A stretch of DNA of 38,690 nt from the UHGV virus genome UHGV-0117250; one strand, written 5' to 3'. The notes beneath the pieces are model-generated. The model worked only from the letters and a program-made list of their open reading frames with translations. It was not told where the DNA came from and did no database searches. Of this stretch, positions 3,569-34,877 are shown piece after piece. The stretch is from a virus. Made by a program: the position numbers and the translations under genes. The stretch's first letter is position 1; each line of letters begins with the position of its first letter.

Positions 3569-3647
3569 GTTACCGTTAAGGTAATAATTATGCGTATCTG
3601 GTTTGATGTCAATAGATATGAGTTAAAAAAATTACCTGTTAGGTAAT
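3569..3647. promoter_or_regulatory. leftward operator region (OL-like): two 17-bp dyad sites
   Basis: gTTACC-GTTAA-GGTAAt at 3569..3585 and the perfect dyad ATTACC-TGTTA-GGTAAT at 3631..3647, between the repressor terminator and the first leftward gene. Confidence 0.5.
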
Positions 3648-3703: not shown

Positions 3704-4288
3704 TTATTGTTTGTTTTTTTCGTTCTGGTTGATGACAAATTCAATGTAACTTTCGATCTTTGCTTTCTCGGTTTCGGGTAACAAAGCGTAGCGCGAGCGG
3801 TCATAGTTGATAGTCGCAGGGTCGTGCGGGTGAATCAGTAATTCATAGCCGTGACGCCCGAATGCGGATGCAACATTCTCCAGGGTGGAAATGGAAACGC
3901 TGACCTCATTGTTTAACAGGCGGCTGATTGTCACCTGGGCGACGCCGGATGCGCGGTGAAGTTTTCCCTGCGTTGAAAGGTCGCGGCTTTCGCTCATCCA
4001 GCGTTCCAGGTTGTGAGCCGCCAGCTGACCAATGTCGCTTGGTCCGACAGGCTGAAAACCTTCCTGAGAAAGCGAGCGATCGATATCAAGCCAGTTACGG
4101 GGTTTATTGGCGGCAGCTTCAATTTTTCGCGCAACCTGGTCGCCGATAACCTTCTTGCCAAGAGCCCAGCGGTTTACCAGATTTGCCTGAGTTCCAAGTT
4201 TTTCTGCCATCCGCGTCTGAACACCATTGAATTCACGGTCGATCAAGTCGTTGAGATTTTGCCTGCGGACGTCCTGGATACTTTTCAT
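3704..4288 (-). CDS. prophage repressor, double-HTH (XRE-type), no peptidase S24 domain
   Basis: 194 aa; two HTH-like segments (around QTRMAEKLGTQANLVNRW and VAQVTISRLLNNEVSVSISTLENVA); divergent from a cro-like gene with dyad operators between them; no Ser/Lys autocleavage-type C-terminus visible. Confidence 0.7.
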   Translation of the reverse strand: MKSIQDVRRQNLNDLIDREFNGVQTRMAEKLGTQANLVNRWALGKKVIGDQVARKIEAAANKPRNWLDIDRSLSQEGFQPVGPSDIGQLAAHNLERWMSESRDLSTQGKLHRASGVAQVTISRLLNNEVSVSISTLENVASAFGRHGYELLIHPHDPATINYDRSRYALLPETEKAKIESYIEFVINQNEKNKQ

Positions 4289-4342: not shown

Positions 4343-4407
4343 ATTACCCAACAGGTAAATGCACCCCATAGGTAACTATCCTTGATTTTTGTTACCTTAT
4401 GGGTGAA
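4343..4407. promoter_or_regulatory. rightward/maintenance operator region (OR-like): three dyad sites
   Basis: ATTACC-CAACA-GGTAAA (4343..4359), GCACC-CCATA-GGTAA (4361..4375) and GTTACC-TTATG-GGTGAA (4391..4407) in the 155-bp divergent region between the repressor ATG (4288) and the cro-like ATG (4443). Confidence 0.55.
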
Positions 4408-6673: not shown

Positions 6674-6752
6674 ATTACCCATAAGGTAATAAAATATTCT
6701 AAACTCTATTGATTTCGTGTCTTATGTGGTTTTTAATTACCTTAGAGGTAAA
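6674..6752. promoter_or_regulatory. two dyad-motif sites upstream of DUF1064 operon
   Basis: ATTACC-CATAA-GGTAAT (6674..6690) and ATTACC-TTAGA-GGTAAA (6736..6752); the second ends 3 nt before the ATG at 6755. Confidence 0.4.
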
Positions 6753-10211: not shown

Positions 10212-10228
10212 ATTACCACAACGGTAAC
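10212..10228. promoter_or_regulatory. dyad-motif site upstream of terminase genes
   Basis: ATTACC-ACAAC-GGTAAC, 17 nt upstream of the terminase small-subunit start. Confidence 0.35.
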
Positions 10229-10244
10229 AATTACCAGGGTGGTT

Positions 10245-10841
10245 ATGATGCCTGCTGAACCTAAAACATATAAACGCAAATCAACGCAATTTAAGCCACT
10301 AACCGCAATGCAGGAGGCTTATTGCCAGTCATACATCAAAACGCCTGAAAACCAGACTCAGGCAGCGATTAACGCAGGATTCTCCCCAAATACAGCGGCA
10401 GTTAAAGCCAGTGTCATGATGCGCGATGAACGCATTCAAAAACGGATTGCCGAGTTGATGGAGGAGCGCAACAAACGAATGCGCGTCAGTGCCGATTACG
10501 TTCTCATGCGCCTGGTGGAGATCGACCAGATGGACGTGATCGACATCCTCAACGACGATGGGAGCCTTAAGCCAATCCGCGAGTGGCCGAAAATCTGGCG
10601 CACTACGCTTAGTGGCTTTGATCTGTCATCGACCATCATGAACATGAACGAGGATTCGATAGAGACAATCCTCAAAAAAATTAAATGGCCTGACAAGGTG
10701 AAGAACCTCGAACTGATTGGTAAGCACGTCGACGTCAACGCGTTCAAAGAACGCCTGGATGTTAATGTGAATGTGACAATTGCTGATCGCATAGCGGCAG
10801 CCAGGAAGCGACTCAAAGAACGTCAGGATGGTAATCAGTGA
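10245..10841 (+). CDS. terminase small subunit
   Basis: ATG at 10245 within ORF 10167..10841; resembles small-terminase (Terminase_2-type) proteins (...QAAINAGFSPNTAAVKASVMMRDERIQKRIAEL...); directly precedes and overlaps the large subunit. Confidence 0.65.
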   Translation: MMPAEPKTYKRKSTQFKPLTAMQEAYCQSYIKTPENQTQAAINAGFSPNTAAVKASVMMRDERIQKRIAELMEERNKRMRVSADYVLMRLVEIDQMDVIDILNDDGSLKPIREWPKIWRTTLSGFDLSSTIMNMNEDSIETILKKIKWPDKVKNLELIGKHVDVNAFKERLDVNVNVTIADRIAAARKRLKERQDGNQ

Positions 10842-12313
10842 CAGATACAGCGTTATCTCCTGAAGAGCAGTTGATCGAGGATATTGCAGGGTTCACTCAC
10901 GATCCGCTTGGCTATGCCCTCTATGCGTTCCCGTGGGGGGAAGAGGGGACTGAACTGGCACATGCCACCGGCCCACGTCAGTGGCAGGCTGATGCGTTCC
11001 GAGAGATACGTGATCACCTGCAGAATCCAGAGACGCGCTATCAGCCGCTTATGCTGGCACGCGCTTCTGGTCACGGTATTGGTAAATCCGCATTCATCTC
11101 AATGCTGATCAACTGGGGCATGTCCACTTGCGAGGATTGTAAGGTCGTGGTGACCGCCAACACCGACAACCAGCTACGAACGAAGACCTGGCCGGAAATT
11201 ATCAAGTGGTCGAACCTTGCTATCACGAAAGACTGGTTTACCTGTACCGCTACCGCGATGTACAGCAATGATCCTGGGCACGACAAGCGGTGGCGGGCTG
11301 ACGCAATCCCCTGGTCTGAGCACAACACTGAGGCATTCGCCGGACTACACAACGAGCGCAAACGCATCATCGTGGTATTCGATGAAGCGTCGAACATTGC
11401 GGATCTGGTGTGGGAAGTTGCCGAAGGTGCGCTAACGGACGAAGACACTGAGATTATCTGGGTGGCGTTCGGAAACCCGACGCGTAACACCGGGCGTTTC
11501 CGCGAATGTTTCCGCAAATATAAACACCGCTGGAAAACTGCGCAGATTGACAGCCGGACGGTGGAAGGCACTAACAAACAGCAGTTGCAGAAATGGGTTG
11601 ATGACTACGGGGAAGACAGCGACTTCGTTAAAATCCGTGTGCGCGGCATATTCCCGGATGCATCTGAATTGCAGTTTATCCCTACCGGACTTACTGACGA
11701 GGCAATGAAACGGGTGGTCACCGCTGCGCAGGTTGCACATGCTCCGGTGATAATCGGCGTTGACCCGGCATACTCAGGCGTTGATGACGCTGTGATATAC
11801 CTGCGGCAGGGGCTGCACAGTAAGGTGCTGTGGACTGGCAACAAGACCACTGACGATCTGATTATGGCGAAGCGTATCGCTGACTTTGAAGACCAGTACC
11901 AGGCTGACGCAGTGTTCATCGACTTCGGTTACGGAACTGGTCTGAAGTCAATCGGTGACGGCTGGGGTCGTACATGGCAACTTGTTCCGTTCGGTGGCGC
12001 GTCTACTGACCCGCAGATGCTCAACAAGCGTGGGGAGATGTTCAACTCATGTAAGACATGGCTGAGGCTGGGCGGCATGCTGGATGACCAGGAAACTGCA
12101 GACGACCTGTCGGCGGCAGAGTACAAAGTTCGAGTGGACGGTAAAATCGTTATCGAACCGAAGGAAGATATCAAAGAGCGACTTGGGCGTTCGCCGGGTA
12201 AAGGCGATGCGCTGCTGCTGACGTTTGCTTTCCCGGTGTCGAAGCGCCTGCGACTTCCCGGGCAGCAGAACCAGCAAGGCAAGGCGCTTACCGAGTACGA
12301 TCCATATGCTTAG
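10838..12313 (+). CDS. terminase large subunit
   Basis: 491 aa; Walker-A-like ASGHGIGKS; acidic nuclease-type C-terminal region; position and size typical. Confidence 0.8.
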   Translation: MTDTALSPEEQLIEDIAGFTHDPLGYALYAFPWGEEGTELAHATGPRQWQADAFREIRDHLQNPETRYQPLMLARASGHGIGKSAFISMLINWGMSTCEDCKVVVTANTDNQLRTKTWPEIIKWSNLAITKDWFTCTATAMYSNDPGHDKRWRADAIPWSEHNTEAFAGLHNERKRIIVVFDEASNIADLVWEVAEGALTDEDTEIIWVAFGNPTRNTGRFRECFRKYKHRWKTAQIDSRTVEGTNKQQLQKWVDDYGEDSDFVKIRVRGIFPDASELQFIPTGLTDEAMKRVVTAAQVAHAPVIIGVDPAYSGVDDAVIYLRQGLHSKVLWTGNKTTDDLIMAKRIADFEDQYQADAVFIDFGYGTGLKSIGDGWGRTWQLVPFGGASTDPQMLNKRGEMFNSCKTWLRLGGMLDDQETADDLSAAEYKVRVDGKIVIEPKEDIKERLGRSPGKGDALLLTFAFPVSKRLRLPGQQNQQGKALTEYDPYA

Positions 12314-13128
12314 TCTTTATTTTTATCCTCGAAACCTGATAATCCAGATAGAACACCAAAGTTATTAAAAACGTCTGGCTTACCAGATTTTAATCCGGAT
12401 AAGTTGTGTTGCTCCAAAAAGTTGCTAATTGTTTGGCCGTTGCCAAGTGCAAGACTTTTTATTTGAGATTTTTCAGGGTATTTGAGTTTGTATTCGTCGA
12501 AATCATTTTGGAGGGTCTTATATGCCTCATTCATTCTTCCAAGAGTTTCCGATATCTCTTTTAATGAATGATTTAGAGCTGCTAACTGAGCACTGGCGGA
12601 TCTCAATTCGTCATCTTTAGCTTTCAACTCAGCAGTCAATTCCCCCATACTATTCTTTGATCGAATAATCTCTTCTTTCATCTCTTGGATGTCTTTTTCC
12701 GCGCCAGTCTTAACTTTGTCGTATGTAACATCTTTTTTAGCCAATAACCTCTGCAGTCTGGTTTCACGCTGGATTTTTCTTGCCTTCAGGTGATTTTCGA
12801 TTGAGTCATTATTATCAAGAGGCTTTGCTTGCCATACGTTAATGATATTGTTTACCCATGGTAATAGGCAGCAGATAGCAATTACAGATAAGCATGGATA
12901 AAACATAACAGTTTTCCATGTGCTGTTATCTGAGATATATGAAATTTTATCTATTATGTTTGATTTGCTAAAAAATAGATAAAGAATTGATTTCCAGTTG
13001 AAGGCGCACCAGGACATAACAAAAGCACCAAGCACAGGGTTTTTGGCTCGATTCACGGCAGTATTGGCAGTAGATAAAAACAGCTCTTTAAACGATTCAA
13101 ACATGCTAATTACCTTGAAGTTTTTCAT
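12310..13128 (-). CDS. moron: membrane-anchored coiled-coil protein (candidate superinfection-exclusion/abortive-infection factor)
   Basis: Antisense to the structural operon, markedly AT-rich; two hydrophobic segments (PVLGAFVMSWCAFNW; VMFYPCLSVIAICCLLPW) then a long coiled-coil-like C-terminal half; stop codon overlaps the terminase stop. ATG 13128 preferred; an alternative ATG at 13104 has an AAGGT SD. Confidence 0.55.
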   Translation of the reverse strand: MKNFKVISMFESFKELFLSTANTAVNRAKNPVLGAFVMSWCAFNWKSILYLFFSKSNIIDKISYISDNSTWKTVMFYPCLSVIAICCLLPWVNNIINVWQAKPLDNNDSIENHLKARKIQRETRLQRLLAKKDVTYDKVKTGAEKDIQEMKEEIIRSKNSMGELTAELKAKDDELRSASAQLAALNHSLKEISETLGRMNEAYKTLQNDFDEYKLKYPEKSQIKSLALGNGQTISNFLEQHNLSGLKSGKPDVFNNFGVLSGLSGFEDKNKD

Positions 13129-13131
13129 GAT

Positions 13132-13148
13132 TATACCTTTAAGGTAAT
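13132..13148. promoter_or_regulatory. dyad-motif site overlapping moron translation start
   Basis: TATACC-TTTAA-GGTAAT located 4 nt upstream of the moron ATG on the coding strand. Confidence 0.35.
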
Positions 13149-13163
13149 TTGCGGTCATCAAGC

Positions 13164-13188
13164 AAAAAAATGCCCGGCGAACCGGGCG
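13164..13188 (-). terminator. intrinsic terminator-like hairpin (minus strand)
   Basis: GCCCGG-CGAA-CCGGGC followed by a 7-T run on the minus strand, between the tRNA and the moron; a second hairpin with a T-run lies at 13266..13309. Confidence 0.45.
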
Positions 13189-13350
13189 AACTGGAAGCAA
13201 TGAGTTATGCCTTCCGTGGCTGTACGTGTTTACAGCATGAAGTCATCGCAATGGCGTCCTGCTGTAAAAAGGGCGGTGATAGTCCTTCAAGGGAAACCAT
13301 CACCGCCAAGCACCTGGAACTTCTGGCATCACGGTCCTTAGGCGTGATTC

Positions 13351-13748: not shown

Positions 13749-13765
13749 GTTACCTGAAAGGTAAT
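13749..13765. promoter_or_regulatory. dyad-motif site upstream of virion operon
   Basis: GTTACC-TGAAA-GGTAAT; shares the 15-mer ACCTGAAAGGTAATA with the site at 30359..30375. Confidence 0.35.
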
Positions 13766-30002: not shown

Positions 30003-30028
30003 AGGCCGCTCTAGCGGCCTTTTCTTTA
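30003..30028. terminator. bidirectional intrinsic terminator between convergent genes
   Basis: AGGCCGC-TCTA-GCGGCCT followed by TTTCTTT on the plus strand; the stop of the minus-strand gene lies in the T-run. Confidence 0.55.
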
Positions 30029-30283
30029 TGTGGTTTGTTTTCGTAATTGTTCGGCACAATAGTCGAGATGTGTTTGCAGATCCCGCATAGACATCTGTGA
30101 GCTGGTGACGTAGTTAATCAGTGCAGTCAGTTCGGCAAGTGGGCCATCGACATTAAATCCATCCTTATCGAGCTCCCGGAGTAATTTCATCAAGTGCGAT
30201 CCCTCCACCAGTGATCTGACGCCTCCCGGCGTGTGAATCCTTTCGGTAAATCCGTCTTCCAGTGGATAGTGATACTGCTGCAT
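30026..30283 (-). CDS. LexA-regulated small protein (candidate antirepressor)
   Basis: 85 aa from ATG 30283 with GGAG SD (track start 30301 is TTG); a near-consensus LexA box lies about 20 bp upstream. Confidence 0.5.
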   Translation of the reverse strand: MQQYHYPLEDGFTERIHTPGGVRSLVEGSHLMKLLRELDKDGFNVDGPLAELTALINYVTSSQMSMRDLQTHLDYCAEQLRKQTT

Positions 30284-30301: not shown

Positions 30302-30323
30302 TAACTGTATAAATATACAGTAT
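30302..30323. promoter_or_regulatory. LexA (SOS) box
   Basis: AACTGTATAAATATACAGTA: CTGT-N8-ACAG with an AT-rich spacer, a near-perfect match to the E. coli LexA consensus TACTGTATATATATACAGTA. Confidence 0.7.
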
Positions 30324-30358: not shown

Positions 30359-30375
30359 ATCACCTGAAAGGTAAT
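30359..30375. promoter_or_regulatory. dyad-motif site between LexA-box gene and tailspike
   Basis: TCACC-TGAAA-GGTAAT; shares the 15-mer ACCTGAAAGGTAATA with the site at 13749..13765. Confidence 0.35.
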
Positions 30376-30478: not shown

Positions 30479-32773
30479 ATGACGGTCTCAACCGAAGTTG
30501 ACCACAACGAATACACCGGTAACGGTGTTACAACGACATTCCCTTATACCTTCAGGATTTTCCAGAAATCTGATTTAGTAGTGCAGGTTGTTGACCTGAA
30601 CGAGAACATCACAGAGCTGATTCTTGATACTGATTACATAGTCACTGGTGCGGGAGGCTATAGCGGCGGTAATATAATACTGTCGAAGGCATTGGCCAAC
30701 GGTTATCAGATCTCTATATCAAGAGAGCTACCGGTTACGCAGGATACCGATCTGCGCAACCAGGGTAAGTTCTTCGCTGAGGTGCATGAAGACGCATTCG
30801 ATAAACTGACGATGCTGATACAGCAGGTTGTCAGCATGTTCCGCCTGGCGCTGCGTAAGCCGTCGAGTATCGCCAACTGGTACGATGCCCTAAACAACTA
30901 CATCAGGAATGTGCGCGACCCTCGGGACCCTCAGGACGCGGCGACCAAAAATTATGTTGATGGCGTTGCCAGCTCTAACCTTAGCCGCACTCTCAGAACT
31001 CCAGAACCAATTCCTTCGTTACCGAATGCTGCGACCAGGGCGAACAAAATTATTGCGTTCGACAGCGCAGGCAATCCATATGTAACGATGCCACCATCTG
31101 GATCGGCAACAGATGTTTTTGTTGAACTGGCAAAGCCAACCGGGCCGACGCTTATTGGTGTGCAGCCTCAGGGAAACCTTTCTCAACTGTTGATCTACGT
31201 TACTCCCGAGCAGTTTGGGGCAATCGGGGACGGTACCGCCCATCCTTTATCTGAGCGATACCTTACACTGTCCGCTGCCCAGGCCGTATACCCGTTCGTA
31301 ACATCATTAACTCAGACCATCGATTGGGCAGCTTGCCAGGCGGCTGAGAACTATGCCAGAGGGAAGTGCCAAATCAATGTTAAAAAAAATAAGATGTATC
31401 ACTTTGGGAGTACTGATTATTTAGAATTCGGACAAAAATCAGCCTGGATCGCACCGCCTCTAGGAGGTTTTGACTTTACCACTGGGTTTATTAGATCTGT
31501 CCCTAGCAATTCTTCGAGCTATCAATTCGGGCAGCTATGCATTGGCAGAGTTATGGATTCTGATGAAGCTGGTAGCTCTGACTCTGCATTTAGGGATTTG
31601 ACCATTAAGGGATTAACCTTTAAGTGGGACACCGCAAGGCATGTTGCAAGTAAAGGACTTGGCACCATTGCTTTACACCTAAATATGGCTATAAAAGCAA
31701 ATTTGGATGTGAGCATGTTTGGTGCTGAATATGCATGTTTTGGATACAGCGCGTGGGGAACGCAAGGGATTATTAGATTTGATTCTTGCCACAAGGGCGT
31801 TTACTTTGACGCCGTAAGCTTATCACCGGAAAAGGACACAGTTGGAGGCTCAACTACATCACATCATATTGAACTTCAGGCGGATCATACCCCATTCCCC
31901 ATCTATCTGAAGAACTGTAATTATGCAAAATTCCACGGTTGGTTTGAAGGAGCGCTTGCGCAGTACGGCAACTACGACAGTGTAAATGAAACAGCAATGG
32001 GCATTACGCTTGATACGTGCAGTAACGTAACATTTGATATGGGGATAGAAGCGTGGGAAGGTGCCCATATTAATTGCATCGGTAGCGTTGAAGCAGAATT
32101 TAAGCTTCATTATCTCCAAGACTCCACTGATGGTGTATTAATCAAGGGGCTTGGAACTCAAGGCGTTGCTAAGGTGATGAGAACTCTTATGGGTGCTGCC
32201 GATGAGACAGCTATTGCATCTTCAAATCGAAGCTTAATATACGTCGGTCAGTTTAGTAACATATCGGTAAAACACTATGCGCCTGTTCTTTCAAAGTATA
32301 CAGATAGCACCTTTGCACCATACGTAGTTACTGTAGACCCATCCTCGAAGATCACGTTCGAGCAATGCGGAATGCATCTTGGGGGTGCTTCAAGACTTGG
32401 CGGAGCATCAACCAACCTTAAGCTGGCTCCAGCAAACTATCAGTGCATTGAATCTATTGGTTGCATGTATATGGAAAGATACATGAAGGCCAATGAGACG
32501 TACGACTACATACGCAACGGATATAGCAGGCATAACGCATGGCAAACAAAAGTTATCAATGCTGGCGATGGCAGGGTGCAACTCGACGCCCCAACAGGAT
32601 TTAGAATCGATGACTACACTGCGCATGTCGTGGCAAGCTCGCAATCTTCAGCTGGATCAAGCGCTCCATTAGCAGTGGTATCAGCAAGCAACACAGCGGT
32701 GGTACTGCAGACGCCGATATCAGCAACCGGTGTAAGCCTGATGTACAAACTCACACTTAAAGTGATAGCGTAA
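30479..32773 (+). CDS. tailspike protein (receptor-binding, beta-helix-like)
   Basis: 764 aa; GGAG SD; conserved particle-binding N-terminus (DHNEYTGNGVTTTFPYTFRIF) followed by a divergent, lower-GC C-terminal receptor-binding part. Confidence 0.75.
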   Translation: MTVSTEVDHNEYTGNGVTTTFPYTFRIFQKSDLVVQVVDLNENITELILDTDYIVTGAGGYSGGNIILSKALANGYQISISRELPVTQDTDLRNQGKFFAEVHEDAFDKLTMLIQQVVSMFRLALRKPSSIANWYDALNNYIRNVRDPRDPQDAATKNYVDGVASSNLSRTLRTPEPIPSLPNAATRANKIIAFDSAGNPYVTMPPSGSATDVFVELAKPTGPTLIGVQPQGNLSQLLIYVTPEQFGAIGDGTAHPLSERYLTLSAAQAVYPFVTSLTQTIDWAACQAAENYARGKCQINVKKNKMYHFGSTDYLEFGQKSAWIAPPLGGFDFTTGFIRSVPSNSSSYQFGQLCIGRVMDSDEAGSSDSAFRDLTIKGLTFKWDTARHVASKGLGTIALHLNMAIKANLDVSMFGAEYACFGYSAWGTQGIIRFDSCHKGVYFDAVSLSPEKDTVGGSTTSHHIELQADHTPFPIYLKNCNYAKFHGWFEGALAQYGNYDSVNETAMGITLDTCSNVTFDMGIEAWEGAHINCIGSVEAEFKLHYLQDSTDGVLIKGLGTQGVAKVMRTLMGAADETAIASSNRSLIYVGQFSNISVKHYAPVLSKYTDSTFAPYVVTVDPSSKITFEQCGMHLGGASRLGGASTNLKLAPANYQCIESIGCMYMERYMKANETYDYIRNGYSRHNAWQTKVINAGDGRVQLDAPTGFRIDDYTAHVVASSQSSAGSSAPLAVVSASNTAVVLQTPISATGVSLMYKLTLKVIA

Positions 32774-32870
32774 TACTTGAACGATTCAAACTAACTTTTG
32801 CTTAAATGATGAAATCCACAGTCTAAATGTATAACATGCCTCGTATCGTAACTGTGTGAGGCATTGAGGC

Positions 32871-34730
32871 ATGGACTTCAGGAAGGATATCAATGGAGTC
32901 AGGGCTATAGCAGTTCTTGCTGTAGTCCTGTTCCACTTCAACAGAGGATGGGTCCCGAGTGGATTTGTTGGCGTAGATGTATTCTTTGTAATTTCTGGTT
33001 TTTTGATGACGTCAATAATATTTGGCGGATTAGAAGGAAATAAATTTTCTCTGTGGGGCTTTTATAAAGCACGAGCCAGAAGGATAGTGCCTGCGCTTGC
33101 CGTTATGCTAATTTGCGTAATGGTATACGGATGGTACAACATGTACACTCCTGAATTTAAGACATTGGCGAAGCACGCTGCGTCAAGCCTTCTATTTGTT
33201 TCAAATATCGTCTATTGGAAGGAGTCAAGCTACTTTGCTCCTGGTGCAGAAGAGAAGTGGTTACTTCATACTTGGTCTCTATCTGTAGAATGGCAATTCT
33301 ATATTATATATCCTTTAGCCATTTATATTATCAGAAAGGCTTTCAGTTTAAAGGTATCTAGGATATTAATTCTGATTGCAGGCCTATTAAGTTTAGCACT
33401 TAGCATTTATGCATCTAGGATTTTAGTTAGCTCATCATATTTCTTGCTTCCAACAAGGGCATGGGAGATGATTGCTGGCGGCGTGGTTTATCTTTTCCCG
33501 ACATCAATATTTAAACGAAAACCTTTCCCATATATCGGGATTGCTACCATATTAGTATCCTGCTTTATTTTTAGCGAGGAATCGTACTGGCCTAGCTACA
33601 ATGCGCTGCTGCCTATCATCGGCACGATGATCATATTGTGGTCGTGTTCTGATAACATTATCTTAGATTCATCTTTTGCGCAAAAGATTGGGTTGTATTC
33701 ATATTCAATTTATTTGTGGCACTGGCCGATCTATCTATATATATATAATACATATGGTGGTGTTTCTATATTAACAACGCTCATTGGAATTGTTGCGTCA
33801 GTGGCGATGGGTATGTTGTCATTTAAATATATAGAAAGTGTTTTCAAAAGTAGAGGCGGCGTTAAAAAGGAGTTTCTGTACTTTGCATCATTAGCTTTAG
33901 CTGTTGGTATATATATTTCTAATGGCGCTAACACTGATATGCGAAGTATCACAAAAACTACCGGTAATGAAACTGTGGTGCATTACGATGGATATCGGTT
34001 TGATAATAATGGGATGTGGGATAAATGTAACAGCAGTGAAAAACTGGATCATATCGATAAATCATGTGTCGATACTGATAAAAGGGGAGGTGTCTTCTTA
34101 TGGGGAGACTCTCACGCGGGAGCACTTTCTTTAGGGATAAGATCACTTCTAAAAGATGGCGTTCCATTCTATCAACTTGCTGCTTCAAGTTGTAAACCGA
34201 GTCTCCATAAATTCCCTGGAGTTATAAGTGCCACAATTGGATGTAATCTATCCAATGAAAAAGCCATTGAAGATATAAATATTGTTAAACCTGATGTTGT
34301 GGTATTAGCTCAGAGATTCCAGCATGAAGAAACAAACTGGCAAAGCATCGCTGAGAAAATACACTCACTGGGTGTTAAGAAAGTTATAGTCCTTGGTCCT
34401 GTTCCTCAGTGGAAAGGGAGCCTGCCGCTAATTGTTGCGAAAAACTACAATCCTAATGATATTTACATTGATGAACGATTTTTGGATAAACAGATTGTCG
34501 CGACAAATAACAAAATGAAGACGATATCAAAAGACAATGAAGGTTATGATTTTGTCGACATACTTGATCACTTATGCACACATGAAGGTTCAGAACTGAA
34601 GTGTAGGGCAAGGGTAGATAGTGGCTTTACGCTTATGTCTATGGATTACGGTCACCCTACTGATGAAGGGTCACTGTTCATCGGCAAACACATAATTAAA
34701 AGCCACCTCCCAACAAGCATAACCAAGTAA
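32871..34730 (+). CDS. O-antigen acetyltransferase (acyltransferase-3 membrane domain + SGNH domain)
   Basis: 619 aa; multi-TM N-terminal half typical of acyltransferase family 3 (OafA/Oac-like); C-terminal domain with GDSH-type motif (FLWGDSHAG); AT-rich; directly downstream of the tailspike. Confidence 0.75.
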   Translation: MDFRKDINGVRAIAVLAVVLFHFNRGWVPSGFVGVDVFFVISGFLMTSIIFGGLEGNKFSLWGFYKARARRIVPALAVMLICVMVYGWYNMYTPEFKTLAKHAASSLLFVSNIVYWKESSYFAPGAEEKWLLHTWSLSVEWQFYIIYPLAIYIIRKAFSLKVSRILILIAGLLSLALSIYASRILVSSSYFLLPTRAWEMIAGGVVYLFPTSIFKRKPFPYIGIATILVSCFIFSEESYWPSYNALLPIIGTMIILWSCSDNIILDSSFAQKIGLYSYSIYLWHWPIYLYIYNTYGGVSILTTLIGIVASVAMGMLSFKYIESVFKSRGGVKKEFLYFASLALAVGIYISNGANTDMRSITKTTGNETVVHYDGYRFDNNGMWDKCNSSEKLDHIDKSCVDTDKRGGVFLWGDSHAGALSLGIRSLLKDGVPFYQLAASSCKPSLHKFPGVISATIGCNLSNEKAIEDINIVKPDVVVLAQRFQHEETNWQSIAEKIHSLGVKKVIVLGPVPQWKGSLPLIVAKNYNPNDIYIDERFLDKQIVATNNKMKTISKDNEGYDFVDILDHLCTHEGSELKCRARVDSGFTLMSMDYGHPTDEGSLFIGKHIIKSHLPTSITK

Positions 34731-34732
34731 CA

Positions 34733-34758
34733 GAAGCCCACTCCGGTGGGCTTTTTAA
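34733..34758 (+). terminator. rho-independent terminator after acetyltransferase
   Basis: AGCCCAC-TCCG-GTGGGCT followed by TTTTTAAT. Confidence 0.6.
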
Positions 34759-34773
34759 TACCCGTAAGGTAAT
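34757..34773. promoter_or_regulatory. dyad-motif site upstream of lysis cassette
   Basis: ATACC-CGTAA-GGTAAT immediately after the terminator. Confidence 0.35.
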
Positions 34774-34877
34774 TTCGTTAAGAGCATTCCGATCATAATT
34801 AAACCACATATGATTTATTGTGTATGATGAACTCACCAACTAAGGGGGTTCTTTATGCACATTAAACGGTGGTCACT

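What the first reader, a model, noticed from the sequence alone, without database searches (positions are those of the whole stretch)
30479..34730. Receptor-binding/serotype-conversion module: tailspike followed by an AT-rich O-antigen acetyltransferase
A tailspike with a conserved particle-binding N-terminus and a divergent C-terminal part is followed by an acyltransferase-3 + SGNH protein of the Oac/OafA type. This pairing is typical of phages that use O-antigen as receptor and then acetylate it in the lysogen to block superinfection and alter serotype. The tailspike C-terminus and acetyltransferase gene are clearly more AT-rich than the virion genes, and dyad-motif sites plus terminators flank the module, consistent with horizontal acquisition as a unit.
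Basis: partly seen in the sequence, partly recalled or inferred. Interest (0 to 1): 0.5.

Follow-up and report, generated by a model that had tools for sequence, protein, structure and literature searches.

The report
Prophage tailspike plus O-antigen acetyltransferase cassette
An epsilon15/phiV10-type prophage of E. coli carries a receptor-binding tailspike followed by an intact membrane acetyltransferase that most likely acetylates the host's O29-type O-antigen; this is a well-known kind of serotype-conversion module, and here most of it has visibly moved as one 3.6-kb block between unrelated phages.

Summary
ORF 30479-32773 is an epsilon15/phiV10-type tailspike: a conserved anchor and a swapped beta-helix receptor-binding domain (RBD). 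ORF 32871-34730 is an intact AT3+SGNH acyltransferase that keeps every residue shown to be essential in Salmonella OafA. The acyltransferase is strongly AT-rich (39% GC, against 49.6 +/- 2.3% elsewhere). The tailspike C-part is only mildly AT-rich (45.8%).

Window 31199-34756 runs from the start of the RBD to the terminator after the acyltransferase. It is one gap-free block, 91.9% identical to a siphovirus-type prophage of Enterobacter cloacae. The same RBD/acyltransferase pairing recurs in a Hafnia myovirus-type prophage and in a Cronobacter epsilon15-like prophage. A P2-like Pectobacterium prophage has the same acyltransferase clade behind an unrelated tail fibre.

Both typed hosts of the module, E. 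coli GPEC1405 and a Shigella dysenteriae strain, carry O29-family wzy. Among 5,426 complete E. coli genomes, only O29 genomes show any DNA similarity to this RBD.

Not shown: expression in the lysogen, the acceptor sugar, and the block to adsorption. This is a new member of a known kind, of moderate interest.

The parts
30003..30029 (+). Intrinsic terminator that ends the virion operon, upstream of the module
   Evidence: Stem 30003-30009/30014-30020 followed by a T-run; -13.6 kcal/mol, z -3.35. A terminator is annotated at the equivalent place in phiV10 and epsilon15.
30360..30374 (.). Dyad TCACCTGAAAGGTAA, a backbone repressor-operator motif (left flanking dyad)
   Evidence: One of 12 TTACC-N5-GGTAA sites, against 0.8 expected. 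It aligns with the 'repressor' protein_bind feature of epsilon15.
30479..32773 (+). Tailspike gene, 764 aa
   Evidence: ORF. PHROG 1640 'tail protein' 2e-146. AF2 model with mean pLDDT 77.9; the beta-helix (aa 240-764) is mostly above 85. Foldseek matches to tailspikes 4RU4, 4RU5, 6EU4, 4URR and 2VJI.
30479..31198 (+). Anchor and neck (aa 1-240), which attach the spike to the epsilon15-type tail; the conserved backbone part
   Evidence: DNA 76-90% identical to epsilon15, phiV10 and PAS61 up to 30961-31014. PDB 8CK1/28LX tail-fibre N-domain, 7e-25, aa 1-136. Many PHROG tail families match only aa 1-~235.
31199..32773 (+). Receptor-binding, probably depolymerase, beta-helix domain (aa 241-764)
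   Evidence: It begins with the invariant motif VTPEQFGAIGDG..HPLSERY, which is shared with LKA1 gp49. It is 93% aa identical in E. cloacae behind a different N-terminus (PF18668), 91% in a Hafnia myovirus-type prophage, and ~58% in P22-type head-binding tailspikes. dN/dS 0.04-0.10.
31199..34756 (+). Horizontally exchanged block: RBD, 97-nt spacer, acyltransferase and terminator
   Evidence: A single gap-free blastn alignment, 3,559 columns at 91.9% identity, to E. cloacae CP183059 (L006 6460-10016). A colinear match at 73.5% to Hafnia (win 31154-34670). The epsilon15-type backbone resumes at 34768-34804.
32774..32870 (+). Spacer and 5' region of the acyltransferase gene, with two invariant blocks: GATGAAAT (32808-32815) and TGTATA (32828-32833)
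   Evidence: Both blocks keep constant spacing in all six aligned loci, including Pectobacterium, where the upstream gene is an unrelated P2-type fibre. Homology with Pectobacterium starts at 32807. The scan found no consensus sigma-70 promoter on the + strand.
32871..34730 (+). AT3-SGNH acyltransferase, 619 aa (AT3 domain ~32883-33815; SGNH domain ~34053-34697)
   Evidence: Pfam PF01757 and PF19040. PHROG 6705 'O-antigen acetylase' 2e-145. PDB 6SE1 (OafB SGNH domain) 1e-6. Invariant residues R11, H22, G31, F32, D36, R68, R71, S111, G412-D413-S414, D592 and H595. dN/dS 0.05-0.09. 39.0% GC.
34732..34760 (+). Intrinsic terminator that ends the tailspike-acyltransferase unit; right end of the mobile block
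   Evidence: 10-bp stem AGAAGCCCAC/GUGGGCUUUU followed by a U-run; -18 kcal/mol, z -3.2. The E. cloacae block ends at 34756.
34758..34772 (.). Dyad ATACCCGTAAGGTAA, a backbone operator motif upstream of the lysis cassette (right flanking dyad)
   Evidence: Homology with phiV10 resumes at 34768.

Best explanation
This is the receptor module of a temperate epsilon15/phiV10-type (Uetakevirus) prophage integrated next to yfgI.

Tailspike. It attaches to the tail through its conserved first ~240 residues. Its beta-helix (aa 241-764) binds, and probably cleaves, an O29-type O-antigen. This O-antigen type is found in E. coli O29 and in Shigella dysenteriae strains that carry O29-family wzy.

Acyltransferase. 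The next gene encodes a two-domain inner-membrane enzyme. Its AT3 domain takes an acetyl group from cytoplasmic acetyl-CoA across the membrane. Its periplasmic SGNH domain (Ser414/Asp592/His595) puts the acetyl group on a sugar of the same O-antigen.

Consequence. The acetylated O-antigen would no longer be a good substrate for the tailspike. The lysogen would then resist superinfection by this phage and its relatives, and its O-serotype would be altered.

Shown here:
- the gene identities and domain architecture;
- an intact catalytic apparatus;
- purifying selection on both genes;
- foreign base composition of the acyltransferase;
- transfer of the RBD and the acyltransferase as one block;
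- the association of the RBD with O29 hosts.

Inferred: O-antigen as the acceptor, which sugar and position is acetylated, expression from the prophage, and the block of adsorption.
For: Identity and integrity.
- Pfam, PHROG and PDB hits.
- Every residue whose mutation abolishes OafA activity in PMC7448272 (R14, H25, G34, D39, R69, R72, S112, S412, H590; D587 partial loss) has an invariant counterpart here: R11, H22, G31, D36, R68, R71, S111, S414, H595, D592.
- Hydrophobic segments occur only in aa 1-353, so the SGNH domain lies outside the membrane core.
- dN/dS is 0.05-0.09 for the acyltransferase.

Context.
- The same slot holds oac in phiV10, annotated as acetylating the host O-antigen and giving superinfection immunity. 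It holds the O-antigen polymerase and inhibitor genes in epsilon15, and an AT3-SGNH gene in PAS61.
[quoted passage not shown] Sf6 Oac, BTP1 OafB and phiV10 Oac are reported to block their own phages (PMC9558356; PMC11854483 abstract).

Coupling.
- The RBD and acyltransferase are colinear with the E. cloacae siphovirus-type prophage (91.9%), the Hafnia myovirus-type prophage and the Cronobacter epsilon15-like prophage.
- The same acyltransferase clade sits behind a P2-type fibre in Pectobacterium.

Receptor.
- GPEC1405, which carries the module at 98.8% identity, has O29-family wzx and wzy.
- The S. dysenteriae contig of 4,292,356 bp that carries the module matches in length the contig recorded for an O29-family polymerase from S. 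dysenteriae.
- Only 11 of 5,426 complete E. coli genomes are O29. All 5 genomes with any DNA similarity to the RBD are among them.
- In O29 strain EC2, two other tailspikes of the same RBD family sit next to other O-antigen modifiers: an AT3-only acetyltransferase and gtrABC.
Against: - The acyltransferase is co-directional with the tailspike gene. No terminator separates them, and the scan found no consensus sigma-70 promoter in the spacer. Expression in the repressed prophage is therefore not demonstrated.
- It is only 31-32% identical to characterised OafB/GtrC, so acceptor specificity cannot be transferred by homology.
- No NCBIfam equivalog is reached; the best hit, SucT, scores 85 bits against a cut-off of 1275.
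- The E. cloacae copy is split by a frameshift, so the gene is dispensable there.
- The O29 association rests on few independent lineages: GPEC1405, the S. dysenteriae strain, and EC2 plus the SW0716 clones.
- The same-assembly link between the RBD and an O29-like wzy was not shown for Cronobacter and was not tested for Enterobacter.
Confidence: 0.68

Rival explanations
1. The acyltransferase acts mainly as a late gene, co-transcribed with the tailspike. It would acetylate the O-antigen of the infected, dying cell so that released virions are not trapped on debris and vesicles. In this reading it is not a lysogenic conversion gene. The two roles are not mutually exclusive.
For: The gene is on the same strand as the tailspike, 97 nt downstream. 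There is no terminator between them and a strong terminator after the acyltransferase. No consensus promoter was found in the spacer. In phiV10, epsilon15 and SPN1S the conversion genes are on the opposite strand, so this orientation is a real difference.
Against: 64 nt upstream of the start codon, with two invariant blocks at fixed spacing, travel with the gene even behind an unrelated P2 fibre gene. That suggests the gene has its own regulatory element. The gene is kept intact under strong purifying selection in prophages of many hosts. Characterised homologues act in lysogens.
Confidence: 0.15
2. The acyltransferase modifies a surface glycan other than the O-antigen. Candidates are peptidoglycan (OatA-like), enterobacterial common antigen, colanic acid or capsule, or LPS core.
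For: AT3-SGNH proteins include peptidoglycan O-acetyltransferases and enzymes with other acceptors (PMC9558356). Identity to proven O-antigen enzymes is low (31-32%). No NCBIfam equivalog is reached.
Against: The best profile and structure matches are to the O-antigen acetylases, PHROG 6705 and OafB 6SE1. The gene always sits directly behind a receptor-binding protein in four different tail architectures. Other tailspikes of the same RBD family in O29 hosts are paired with bona fide O-antigen modifiers, including gtrABC. The RBD distribution follows O29-family wzy.
Confidence: 0.1
3. The pairing has no functional meaning. The slot between the tailspike and the lysis genes is simply a permissive site for morons, and the acyltransferase is a passenger that hitch-hiked with the RBD.
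For: The slot is variable in relatives: some have no acyltransferase and others have unrelated genes (hits H38-H43, H51). The E. cloacae copy is frameshifted.
Against: The RBD and the acyltransferase show discordant divergence (Hafnia: RBD 91%, AT 65%; Cronobacter: RBD 68%, AT 91%), yet they stay adjacent. They have therefore been re-paired repeatedly rather than merely co-inherited. dN/dS is 0.05-0.09.
Confidence: 0.05

Closest known systems
phiV10 tailspike + Oac (E. coli O157:H7 Uetakevirus; Perry et al. 2009, cited in PMC9558356)
   Same: It has the same phage genus and backbone, with 83-86% DNA identity in the flanks. Its tailspike anchor is the same. An O-antigen acetyltransferase occupies the same slot between the tailspike and the holin genes. 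It is annotated as giving superinfection immunity.
   Different: phiV10 Oac is a 338-aa AT3-only protein on the opposite strand. The RBD is unrelated and O157-specific. The enzyme here is a 619-aa AT3-SGNH fusion on the same strand as the tailspike.
Salmonella OafA / OafB (GtrC of prophage BTP1), AT3-SGNH O-antigen acetyltransferases (PMC7448272; PDB 6SE1)
   Same: It has the same two-domain architecture. The R-X10-H, GG-F-xGV-D, RXXR and SN motifs, the Ser/Asp/His triad and the conserved Cys pairs are all present. In BTP1 the gene also lies next to the tailspike gene.
   Different: Identity is only 31-32%. The closest relatives form a separate clade in Pectobacterium, Mixta, Hafnia and Cronobacter (61-72%), followed by Pseudomonas and Vibrio proteins at ~45%. 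The acceptor sugar is unknown; OafA acetylates abequose and OafB acetylates rhamnose.
Escherichia phage vB_EcoP_PAS61 (O146 Uetakevirus, PMC11522302)
   Same: It has the same gene order and strand: tailspike, ~100-nt spacer, 618-aa AT3-SGNH 'O-antigen acetylase', holins.
   Different: Its RBD is different (O146). Its acyltransferase is only ~32% identical overall and ~47% in the AT3 part.
Epsilon15 gp20 tailspike + gp21/gp22 conversion genes
   Same: It shares the anchor domain, a repressor dyad upstream of the tailspike gene and a terminator after the module. The conversion genes occupy the same slot.
   Different: Conversion there works by replacing the O-antigen polymerase, not by acetylation. 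The conversion genes are on the opposite strand.
LKA1 gp49 / phi297 gp61 tailspikes (PDB 4RU4, 4RU5)
   Same: They are the best structural matches. They share the sequence motif at the start of the beta-helix, VTPxQFGAxGDG..HPLSERY.
   Different: They come from Pseudomonas phages. Identity over the helix is 12-13%, and the TM-score is only 0.3-0.4 for the full-length monomer model.

Membership tests
AT3-SGNH fused carbohydrate O-acetyltransferases (OafA/OafB type) | Acyl_transf_3 (PF01757) membrane domain | tested here: met
   7e-34, 117.8 bits against a cut-off of 31, aa 5-315.
AT3-SGNH fused carbohydrate O-acetyltransferases (OafA/OafB type) | C-terminal SGNH domain fused to AT3 (PF19040) | tested here: met
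   3e-26, 93 bits against a cut-off of 27, aa 395-609. PDB 6SE1 OafB SGNH domain, 1e-6, aa 372-606.
AT3-SGNH fused carbohydrate O-acetyltransferases (OafA/OafB type) | TMH1 R/K-X10-H motif and RXXR motif, both essential in OafA | tested here: met
   R11...H22 and R68/R71 are invariant in a 10-sequence alignment that includes BTP1 OafB. The criteria come from PMC7448272.
AT3-SGNH fused carbohydrate O-acetyltransferases (OafA/OafB type) | Fusion-specific periplasmic-loop motifs (GG-F/Y-xGV-D; the Ser of the TMH3-4 loop) | tested here: met
   S30-G31-F32-V33-G34-V35-D36 and S111-N112. G31, F32, D36 and S111 are invariant.
AT3-SGNH fused carbohydrate O-acetyltransferases (OafA/OafB type) | SGNH catalytic triad: Ser of block I (GDS); Asp and His of block V (DxxH) | tested here: met
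   G412-D413-S414 and D592-Y-G-H595 are invariant. They align with the GDS and DxxH blocks of 6SE1.
AT3-SGNH fused carbohydrate O-acetyltransferases (OafA/OafB type) | Acetylates O-antigen (acceptor specificity) | not testable with these tools
   Only contextual support: adjacency to O-antigen-type tailspikes and the PHROG 6705 annotation.
Uetakevirus (epsilon15/phiV10-like) tailspike | Conserved N-terminal anchor shared by the genus | tested here: met
   76-90% DNA identity to epsilon15, phiV10, PAS61 and TL-2011b over the first ~480-540 nt. aa 113-296 are identical to the tailspike of the EC2 prophage.
Uetakevirus (epsilon15/phiV10-like) tailspike | Right-handed parallel beta-helix receptor-binding/depolymerase domain | tested here: met
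   AF2 model: aa 240-764 are mostly beta strands with pLDDT 85-97. Foldseek top hits are tailspikes, E 1e-11 to 1e-5.
Uetakevirus (epsilon15/phiV10-like) tailspike | Genomic position after the gp17-gp19 homologues and before the conversion and lysis genes | tested here: met
   Synteny with phiV10, PAS61 and epsilon15. Holins, GH19 endolysin and Rz follow.
Uetakevirus (epsilon15/phiV10-like) tailspike | Enzymatic cleavage of a specific O-antigen | not testable with these tools
   O29 specificity is inferred from host serogroup genes. Catalytic residues were not identified; invariant acidic residues E490, E504 and E524 are candidates.
Lysogenic (sero)conversion module / moron | Carried by a temperate phage or prophage | tested here: met
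   Prophage flanked by yfgI/yfgH. An HTH repressor gene at 3704-4288 is flanked by operator dyads.
Lysogenic (sero)conversion module / moron | Base composition distinct from the phage backbone | tested here: met
   39.0% GC against 49.6 +/- 2.3%. The gene stays at 37-40% GC in hosts whose flanking phage genes are 50-58% GC.
Lysogenic (sero)conversion module / moron | Own promoter and terminator, allowing expression from the repressed prophage | tested here: inconclusive
   The terminator is present. The scan found no consensus sigma-70 promoter. Conserved upstream blocks GATGAAAT and TGTATA are a candidate regulatory element.
Lysogenic (sero)conversion module / moron | Modification blocks adsorption of the same phage | not testable with these tools
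   Inferred by analogy with Sf6 Oac, BTP1 OafB and phiV10 Oac.

The most novel reading that the evidence does not exclude
The RBD and the AT3-SGNH gene form a self-contained 'key plus lock-changer' cassette. It runs from the conserved VTPEQFGAIGDG motif at the start of the beta-helix to the terminator after the acyltransferase. The cassette would be exchanged among podovirus-, siphovirus- and myovirus-type prophages of Escherichia/Shigella, Enterobacter, Hafnia and Cronobacter that display O29-like O-antigens.

In O29 strains, diverged RBDs of this one family are paired with three different modifiers: AT3-SGNH, AT3-only and GtrABC. This would record competition between prophages for a single receptor.

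The enzyme would be the so far unassigned gene behind O-acetyl variation of the O29 / S. dysenteriae O29-type antigen. That such variation exists is my recollection and is unverified here.
Probability: 0.35. Interest if true: 0.5.

Novelty: new member of a known kind. Interest (0 to 1): 0.33.

Why it matters
- Serotyping. If the inference holds, it assigns a likely receptor (O29-type O-antigen) to a previously unannotated tailspike family. It also names a candidate gene for O-acetylation of that antigen in E. coli O29 and in Shigella dysenteriae strains with O29-family wzy. This matters for serotyping and for glycoconjugate or phage-based tools.
- Engineering. It gives clean boundaries, to within a few bases at the level of the alignments, for a receptor-binding-domain cassette that has moved between three tail morphotypes. 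That is useful for engineering receptor-binding proteins and tailocins.
- Limits. The mechanism itself is textbook lysogenic conversion. It does not change current understanding.

Tried and rejected
- Literature on the O29 and S. dysenteriae type 11 O-antigen structures and their O-acetylation: five searches or look-ups found nothing readable. The review PMC7685785 only cites the O29 structure paper. The claim that S. dysenteriae 11 equals O29 therefore rests on the PGAP name 'O29 family polymerase' and on my memory.
- Promoter for the acyltransferase: the consensus scan found no + strand site in the spacer. Manual inspection gave only a weak ATGAAA-15 nt-TATAAC candidate, which I do not claim.
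- RNA structure in the 5' region: a hairpin covering the Shine-Dalgarno region is predicted, but the fold is not better than shuffles (z -0.75) and is not conserved in Hafnia or Pectobacterium. Rejected.
- Same-assembly link between the Cronobacter turicensis module and an O29-like wzy: the two Wzy proteins looked up belong to other assemblies. Only species-level co-occurrence stands.
- Defence-system reading of the acyltransferase: no PADLOC hit.
- Dyads as recombination sites: rejected. They occur 12 times across the prophage, mostly in pairs at regulatory regions. The left junction of the mobile block is inside the tailspike ORF.
- Dam/OxyR phase variation as in gtr operons: there is no GATC in the spacer (read directly).

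Full report
**What is there**

The window is an epsilon15/phiV10-type (Uetakevirus) prophage. Its right end abuts the E. coli genes yfgI and yfgH.

The gene order is as follows:
- a virion operon ending in a terminator at 30003-30020;
- a short minus-strand gp19-like ORF;
- the tailspike gene (30479-32773);
- a 97-nt spacer;
- the acyltransferase gene (32871-34730);
- a strong terminator (34732-34760);
- two holins, a GH19 endolysin and Rz.

In relatives, the slot between the tailspike and the holin genes is the known site of serotype-conversion genes. PhiV10 has oac there, epsilon15 has its O-antigen polymerase and inhibitor genes, and PAS61 has an AT3-SGNH 'O-antigen acetylase'.

**The tailspike**

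Nucleotide similarity to epsilon15-like phages stops at window 30961-31014, roughly codons 160-180. Many PHROG tail families match only aa 1-~235. The first 136 residues match the N-domain of a solved podovirus tail fibre.

An AlphaFold model built on 36 homologues has three parts:
- a confident N-domain;
- a poorly modelled neck, as expected for a monomer model of a trimer;
- a confident beta-helix from residue 240 to the end.

Foldseek places the beta-helix with the polysaccharide-degrading tailspikes LKA1 gp49, phi297, AS12 gp42, Sf6 and HK620. The helix starts with the motif VTPEQFGAIGDG..HPLSERY. This motif is invariant in the family and also occurs in LKA1 gp49.

**The acyltransferase**

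Pfam finds Acyl_transf_3 and the AT3-fused SGNH domain, both well above threshold. PHROG 6705 'O-antigen acetylase' matches end to end (2e-145). The only solved relative is the SGNH domain of Salmonella OafB.

I aligned it with BTP1 OafB, the PAS61 enzyme and seven clade members. Every residue that mutagenesis showed to be essential in OafA has an invariant counterpart (PMC7448272; alignment):
- R11 and H22 (the R-X10-H motif);
- G31, F32 and D36 (the fusion-specific loop motif);
- R68 and R71 (RXXR);
- S111;
- S414, D592 and H595 (the SGNH triad);
- the three Cys pairs.

Hydrophobic segments stop at residue 353. dN/dS against homologues at informative distances is 0.05-0.09. The gene is therefore intact and under selection.

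Its nearest relatives outside Escherichia and Shigella are Cronobacter (91% aa), then Pectobacterium (72%), Mixta (65%) and Hafnia (65%), followed by a large set of Pseudomonas, Vibrio and Shewanella proteins at ~45%. Characterised Salmonella enzymes are only 31-32% identical.

**Composition**

| Region | GC |
|---|---|
| Acyltransferase gene | 39.0% (GC3 36%) |
| 1500-bp windows outside the module | mean 49.6%, sd 2.3 |
| Tailspike RBD | 45.8% |

The 12 lowest-GC 1500-bp windows of the whole sequence all overlap the module, the lowest of them centred on the acyltransferase gene. The RBD is only about 1.6 sd below the mean.

The low GC travels with the gene. It is 37-40% in Enterobacter, Hafnia, Cronobacter and Pectobacterium, although the neighbouring phage genes there are 50-58% GC. 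It resembles the O29 O-antigen gene cluster itself, which is 36% GC.

**Acquisition as a unit**

This is the most informative result. Window 31199-34756 is a single gap-free alignment, 91.9% identical, to a prophage of Enterobacter cloacae CP183059. That prophage has siphovirus-type tail-tip genes and a tailspike with a different N-terminal anchor (PF18668).

The block begins at codon ~241 of the tailspike, exactly at the conserved motif that opens the beta-helix. It ends at the terminator hairpin behind the acyltransferase. The 97-nt spacer is retained.

Other occurrences:
- A Hafnia alvei myovirus-type prophage (baseplate J, sheath initiator and wedge genes) has the same colinear arrangement at 73% DNA identity.
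- A Cronobacter turicensis epsilon15-like prophage has it too.
- A P2-like Pectobacterium prophage has the acyltransferase, with 64 nt of upstream sequence, behind an unrelated tail fibre.

The two halves are not strictly co-inherited:

| Host | RBD aa identity | Acyltransferase aa identity |
|---|---|---|
| Hafnia | 91% | 65% |
| Cronobacter | 68% | 91% |

The halves have therefore been re-paired, yet they remain neighbours. That argues for a functional link rather than hitch-hiking.

The window itself is a recombinant. It matches the GPEC1405 and S. dysenteriae type up to ~34190 and another E. coli prophage type from there on.

**Which receptor**

- The only complete E. coli genome with the whole module (GPEC1405, 98.8% identity) has wzx and wzy annotated as O29 family.
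- The Shigella dysenteriae contig that carries the module (tailspike 99% identical) is 4,292,356 bp long. A contig of that same length is recorded for an 'O29 family O-antigen polymerase' from S. dysenteriae.
- Eleven of 5,426 complete E. coli genomes carry O29 wzx/wzy. A sensitive blastn with the RBD finds five genomes, and all five are among those eleven.
- In the other four (EC2 and three clonal SW0716 strains), the DNA hit lies in the tailspike of a decayed P22-like prophage that is followed by gtrABC. The same strains also carry an epsilon15-like prophage at yfgI. Its tailspike is identical to the window's in aa 113-296 and ~43% identical in the beta-helix, and it is followed by an unrelated AT3-only acetyltransferase.
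- O29-like Wzy homologues occur in Enterobacter, Cronobacter turicensis and C. malonaticus, and Proteus. RBD homologues are found in the same genera. I could not show that both occur in the same assemblies.

I therefore infer that this RBD family recognises O29-type O-antigen. The number of independent lineages behind this inference is small.

**Regulation**

The dyad TTACC-N5-GGTAA occurs 12 times, against 0.8 expected. Most sites are paired around regulatory regions, including both sides of the HTH repressor gene at 3704-4288. The site at 30360 aligns with the annotated epsilon15 repressor site. However, they are backbone operators, not insertion scars.

No terminator separates the tailspike from the acyltransferase, and the scan found no consensus promoter in the spacer. 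Two short blocks, GATGAAAT and TGTATA, lie 12 nt apart. They are invariant in all six loci aligned, including Pectobacterium. They are the best candidate for the gene's own control element. Whether the gene is expressed in the repressed prophage is the main open step.

**Verdict**

- the left junction lies inside the tailspike gene;
- the dyads are operators;
- the AT-richness of the RBD is modest;
- the RBD and the acyltransferase have reassorted within the cassette.

The module is a new member of a well-known kind: tailspike plus O-antigen modifier, as in Sf6, BTP1, phiV10 and PAS61 (PMC9558356, PMC10408124). Its added value is a probable O29 specificity and clean cassette boundaries across three tail morphotypes.

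Noticed in passing
window 30305-30320 (with the ORF 30026-30283/30301 on the - strand): A perfect LexA-box-like palindrome, CTGTATAAATATACAG, lies immediately upstream of the minus-strand gp19-like ORF (PHROG 450; weak match to the C-terminus of an anti-repressor, 4e-7). The CTGTATA...TACAG core is conserved in epsilon15, phiV10, PAS61, EC2 and Cronobacter. A repressor dyad (30360-30374) and a minus-strand promoter-like site (30401-30373) lie just upstream. This looks like an SOS- and repressor-controlled small gene, possibly an antirepressor.
   Followed up: partly
window 12310-13200 (- strand): The second low-GC spot of the window (35.8% GC at 12501-13000) is a 296-aa minus-strand ORF between the 491-aa ORF at 10838-12313 (no Pfam hit; presumed terminase by position) and the portal gene. 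It matches PHROG 4780 (unknown function, 3e-137). It has no Pfam hit and only weak coiled-coil-type matches to SMC, DndD and LmuB-like models. Operator dyads lie at 13133 and 13750. It may be another moron.
   Followed up: partly
window ~34190 (inside the SGNH-coding part) to 36800: There is a mosaic breakpoint. Left of ~34190 the window is ~100% identical to the GPEC1405 and S. dysenteriae prophages. Right of it, the window switches to ~99-100% identity with another E. coli prophage (L016), while identity to GPEC1405 falls to 62-90% across the holin genes.
   Followed up: yes
L006 8132-9990 (Enterobacter cloacae CP183059): The acyltransferase copy in the E. cloacae prophage is split into 420-aa (AT3) and 197-aa (SGNH) ORFs. 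This is probably a frameshift, so the gene is probably decaying there while the tailspike is intact.
   Followed up: partly
L022 5017-9720 and L002 3176-6634 (E. coli EC2, serogroup O29): One O29 strain carries two further tailspikes of the same RBD family, each next to a different O-antigen modifier. One is a P22-like remnant with gtrABC. The other is an epsilon15-like prophage with an AT3-only acetyltransferase.
   Followed up: partly
window 3570-3646, 4344-4406, 6675-6751, 10213-10245, 13133-13147 and 13750-13764: The operator dyads TTACC-N5-GGTAA mostly come in pairs 18-62 nt apart, at several intergenic regions across the prophage. The repressor therefore seems to act at many promoters, not only at the immunity region.
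   Followed up: no
hit H40 (E. coli UTME-3), and hits H42/H43: In some related prophages the tailspike slot holds a GDSL-type esterase or a GH28-related protein directly followed by the holin gene, with no acyltransferase. These are alternative receptor-processing solutions in the same backbone.
   Followed up: no
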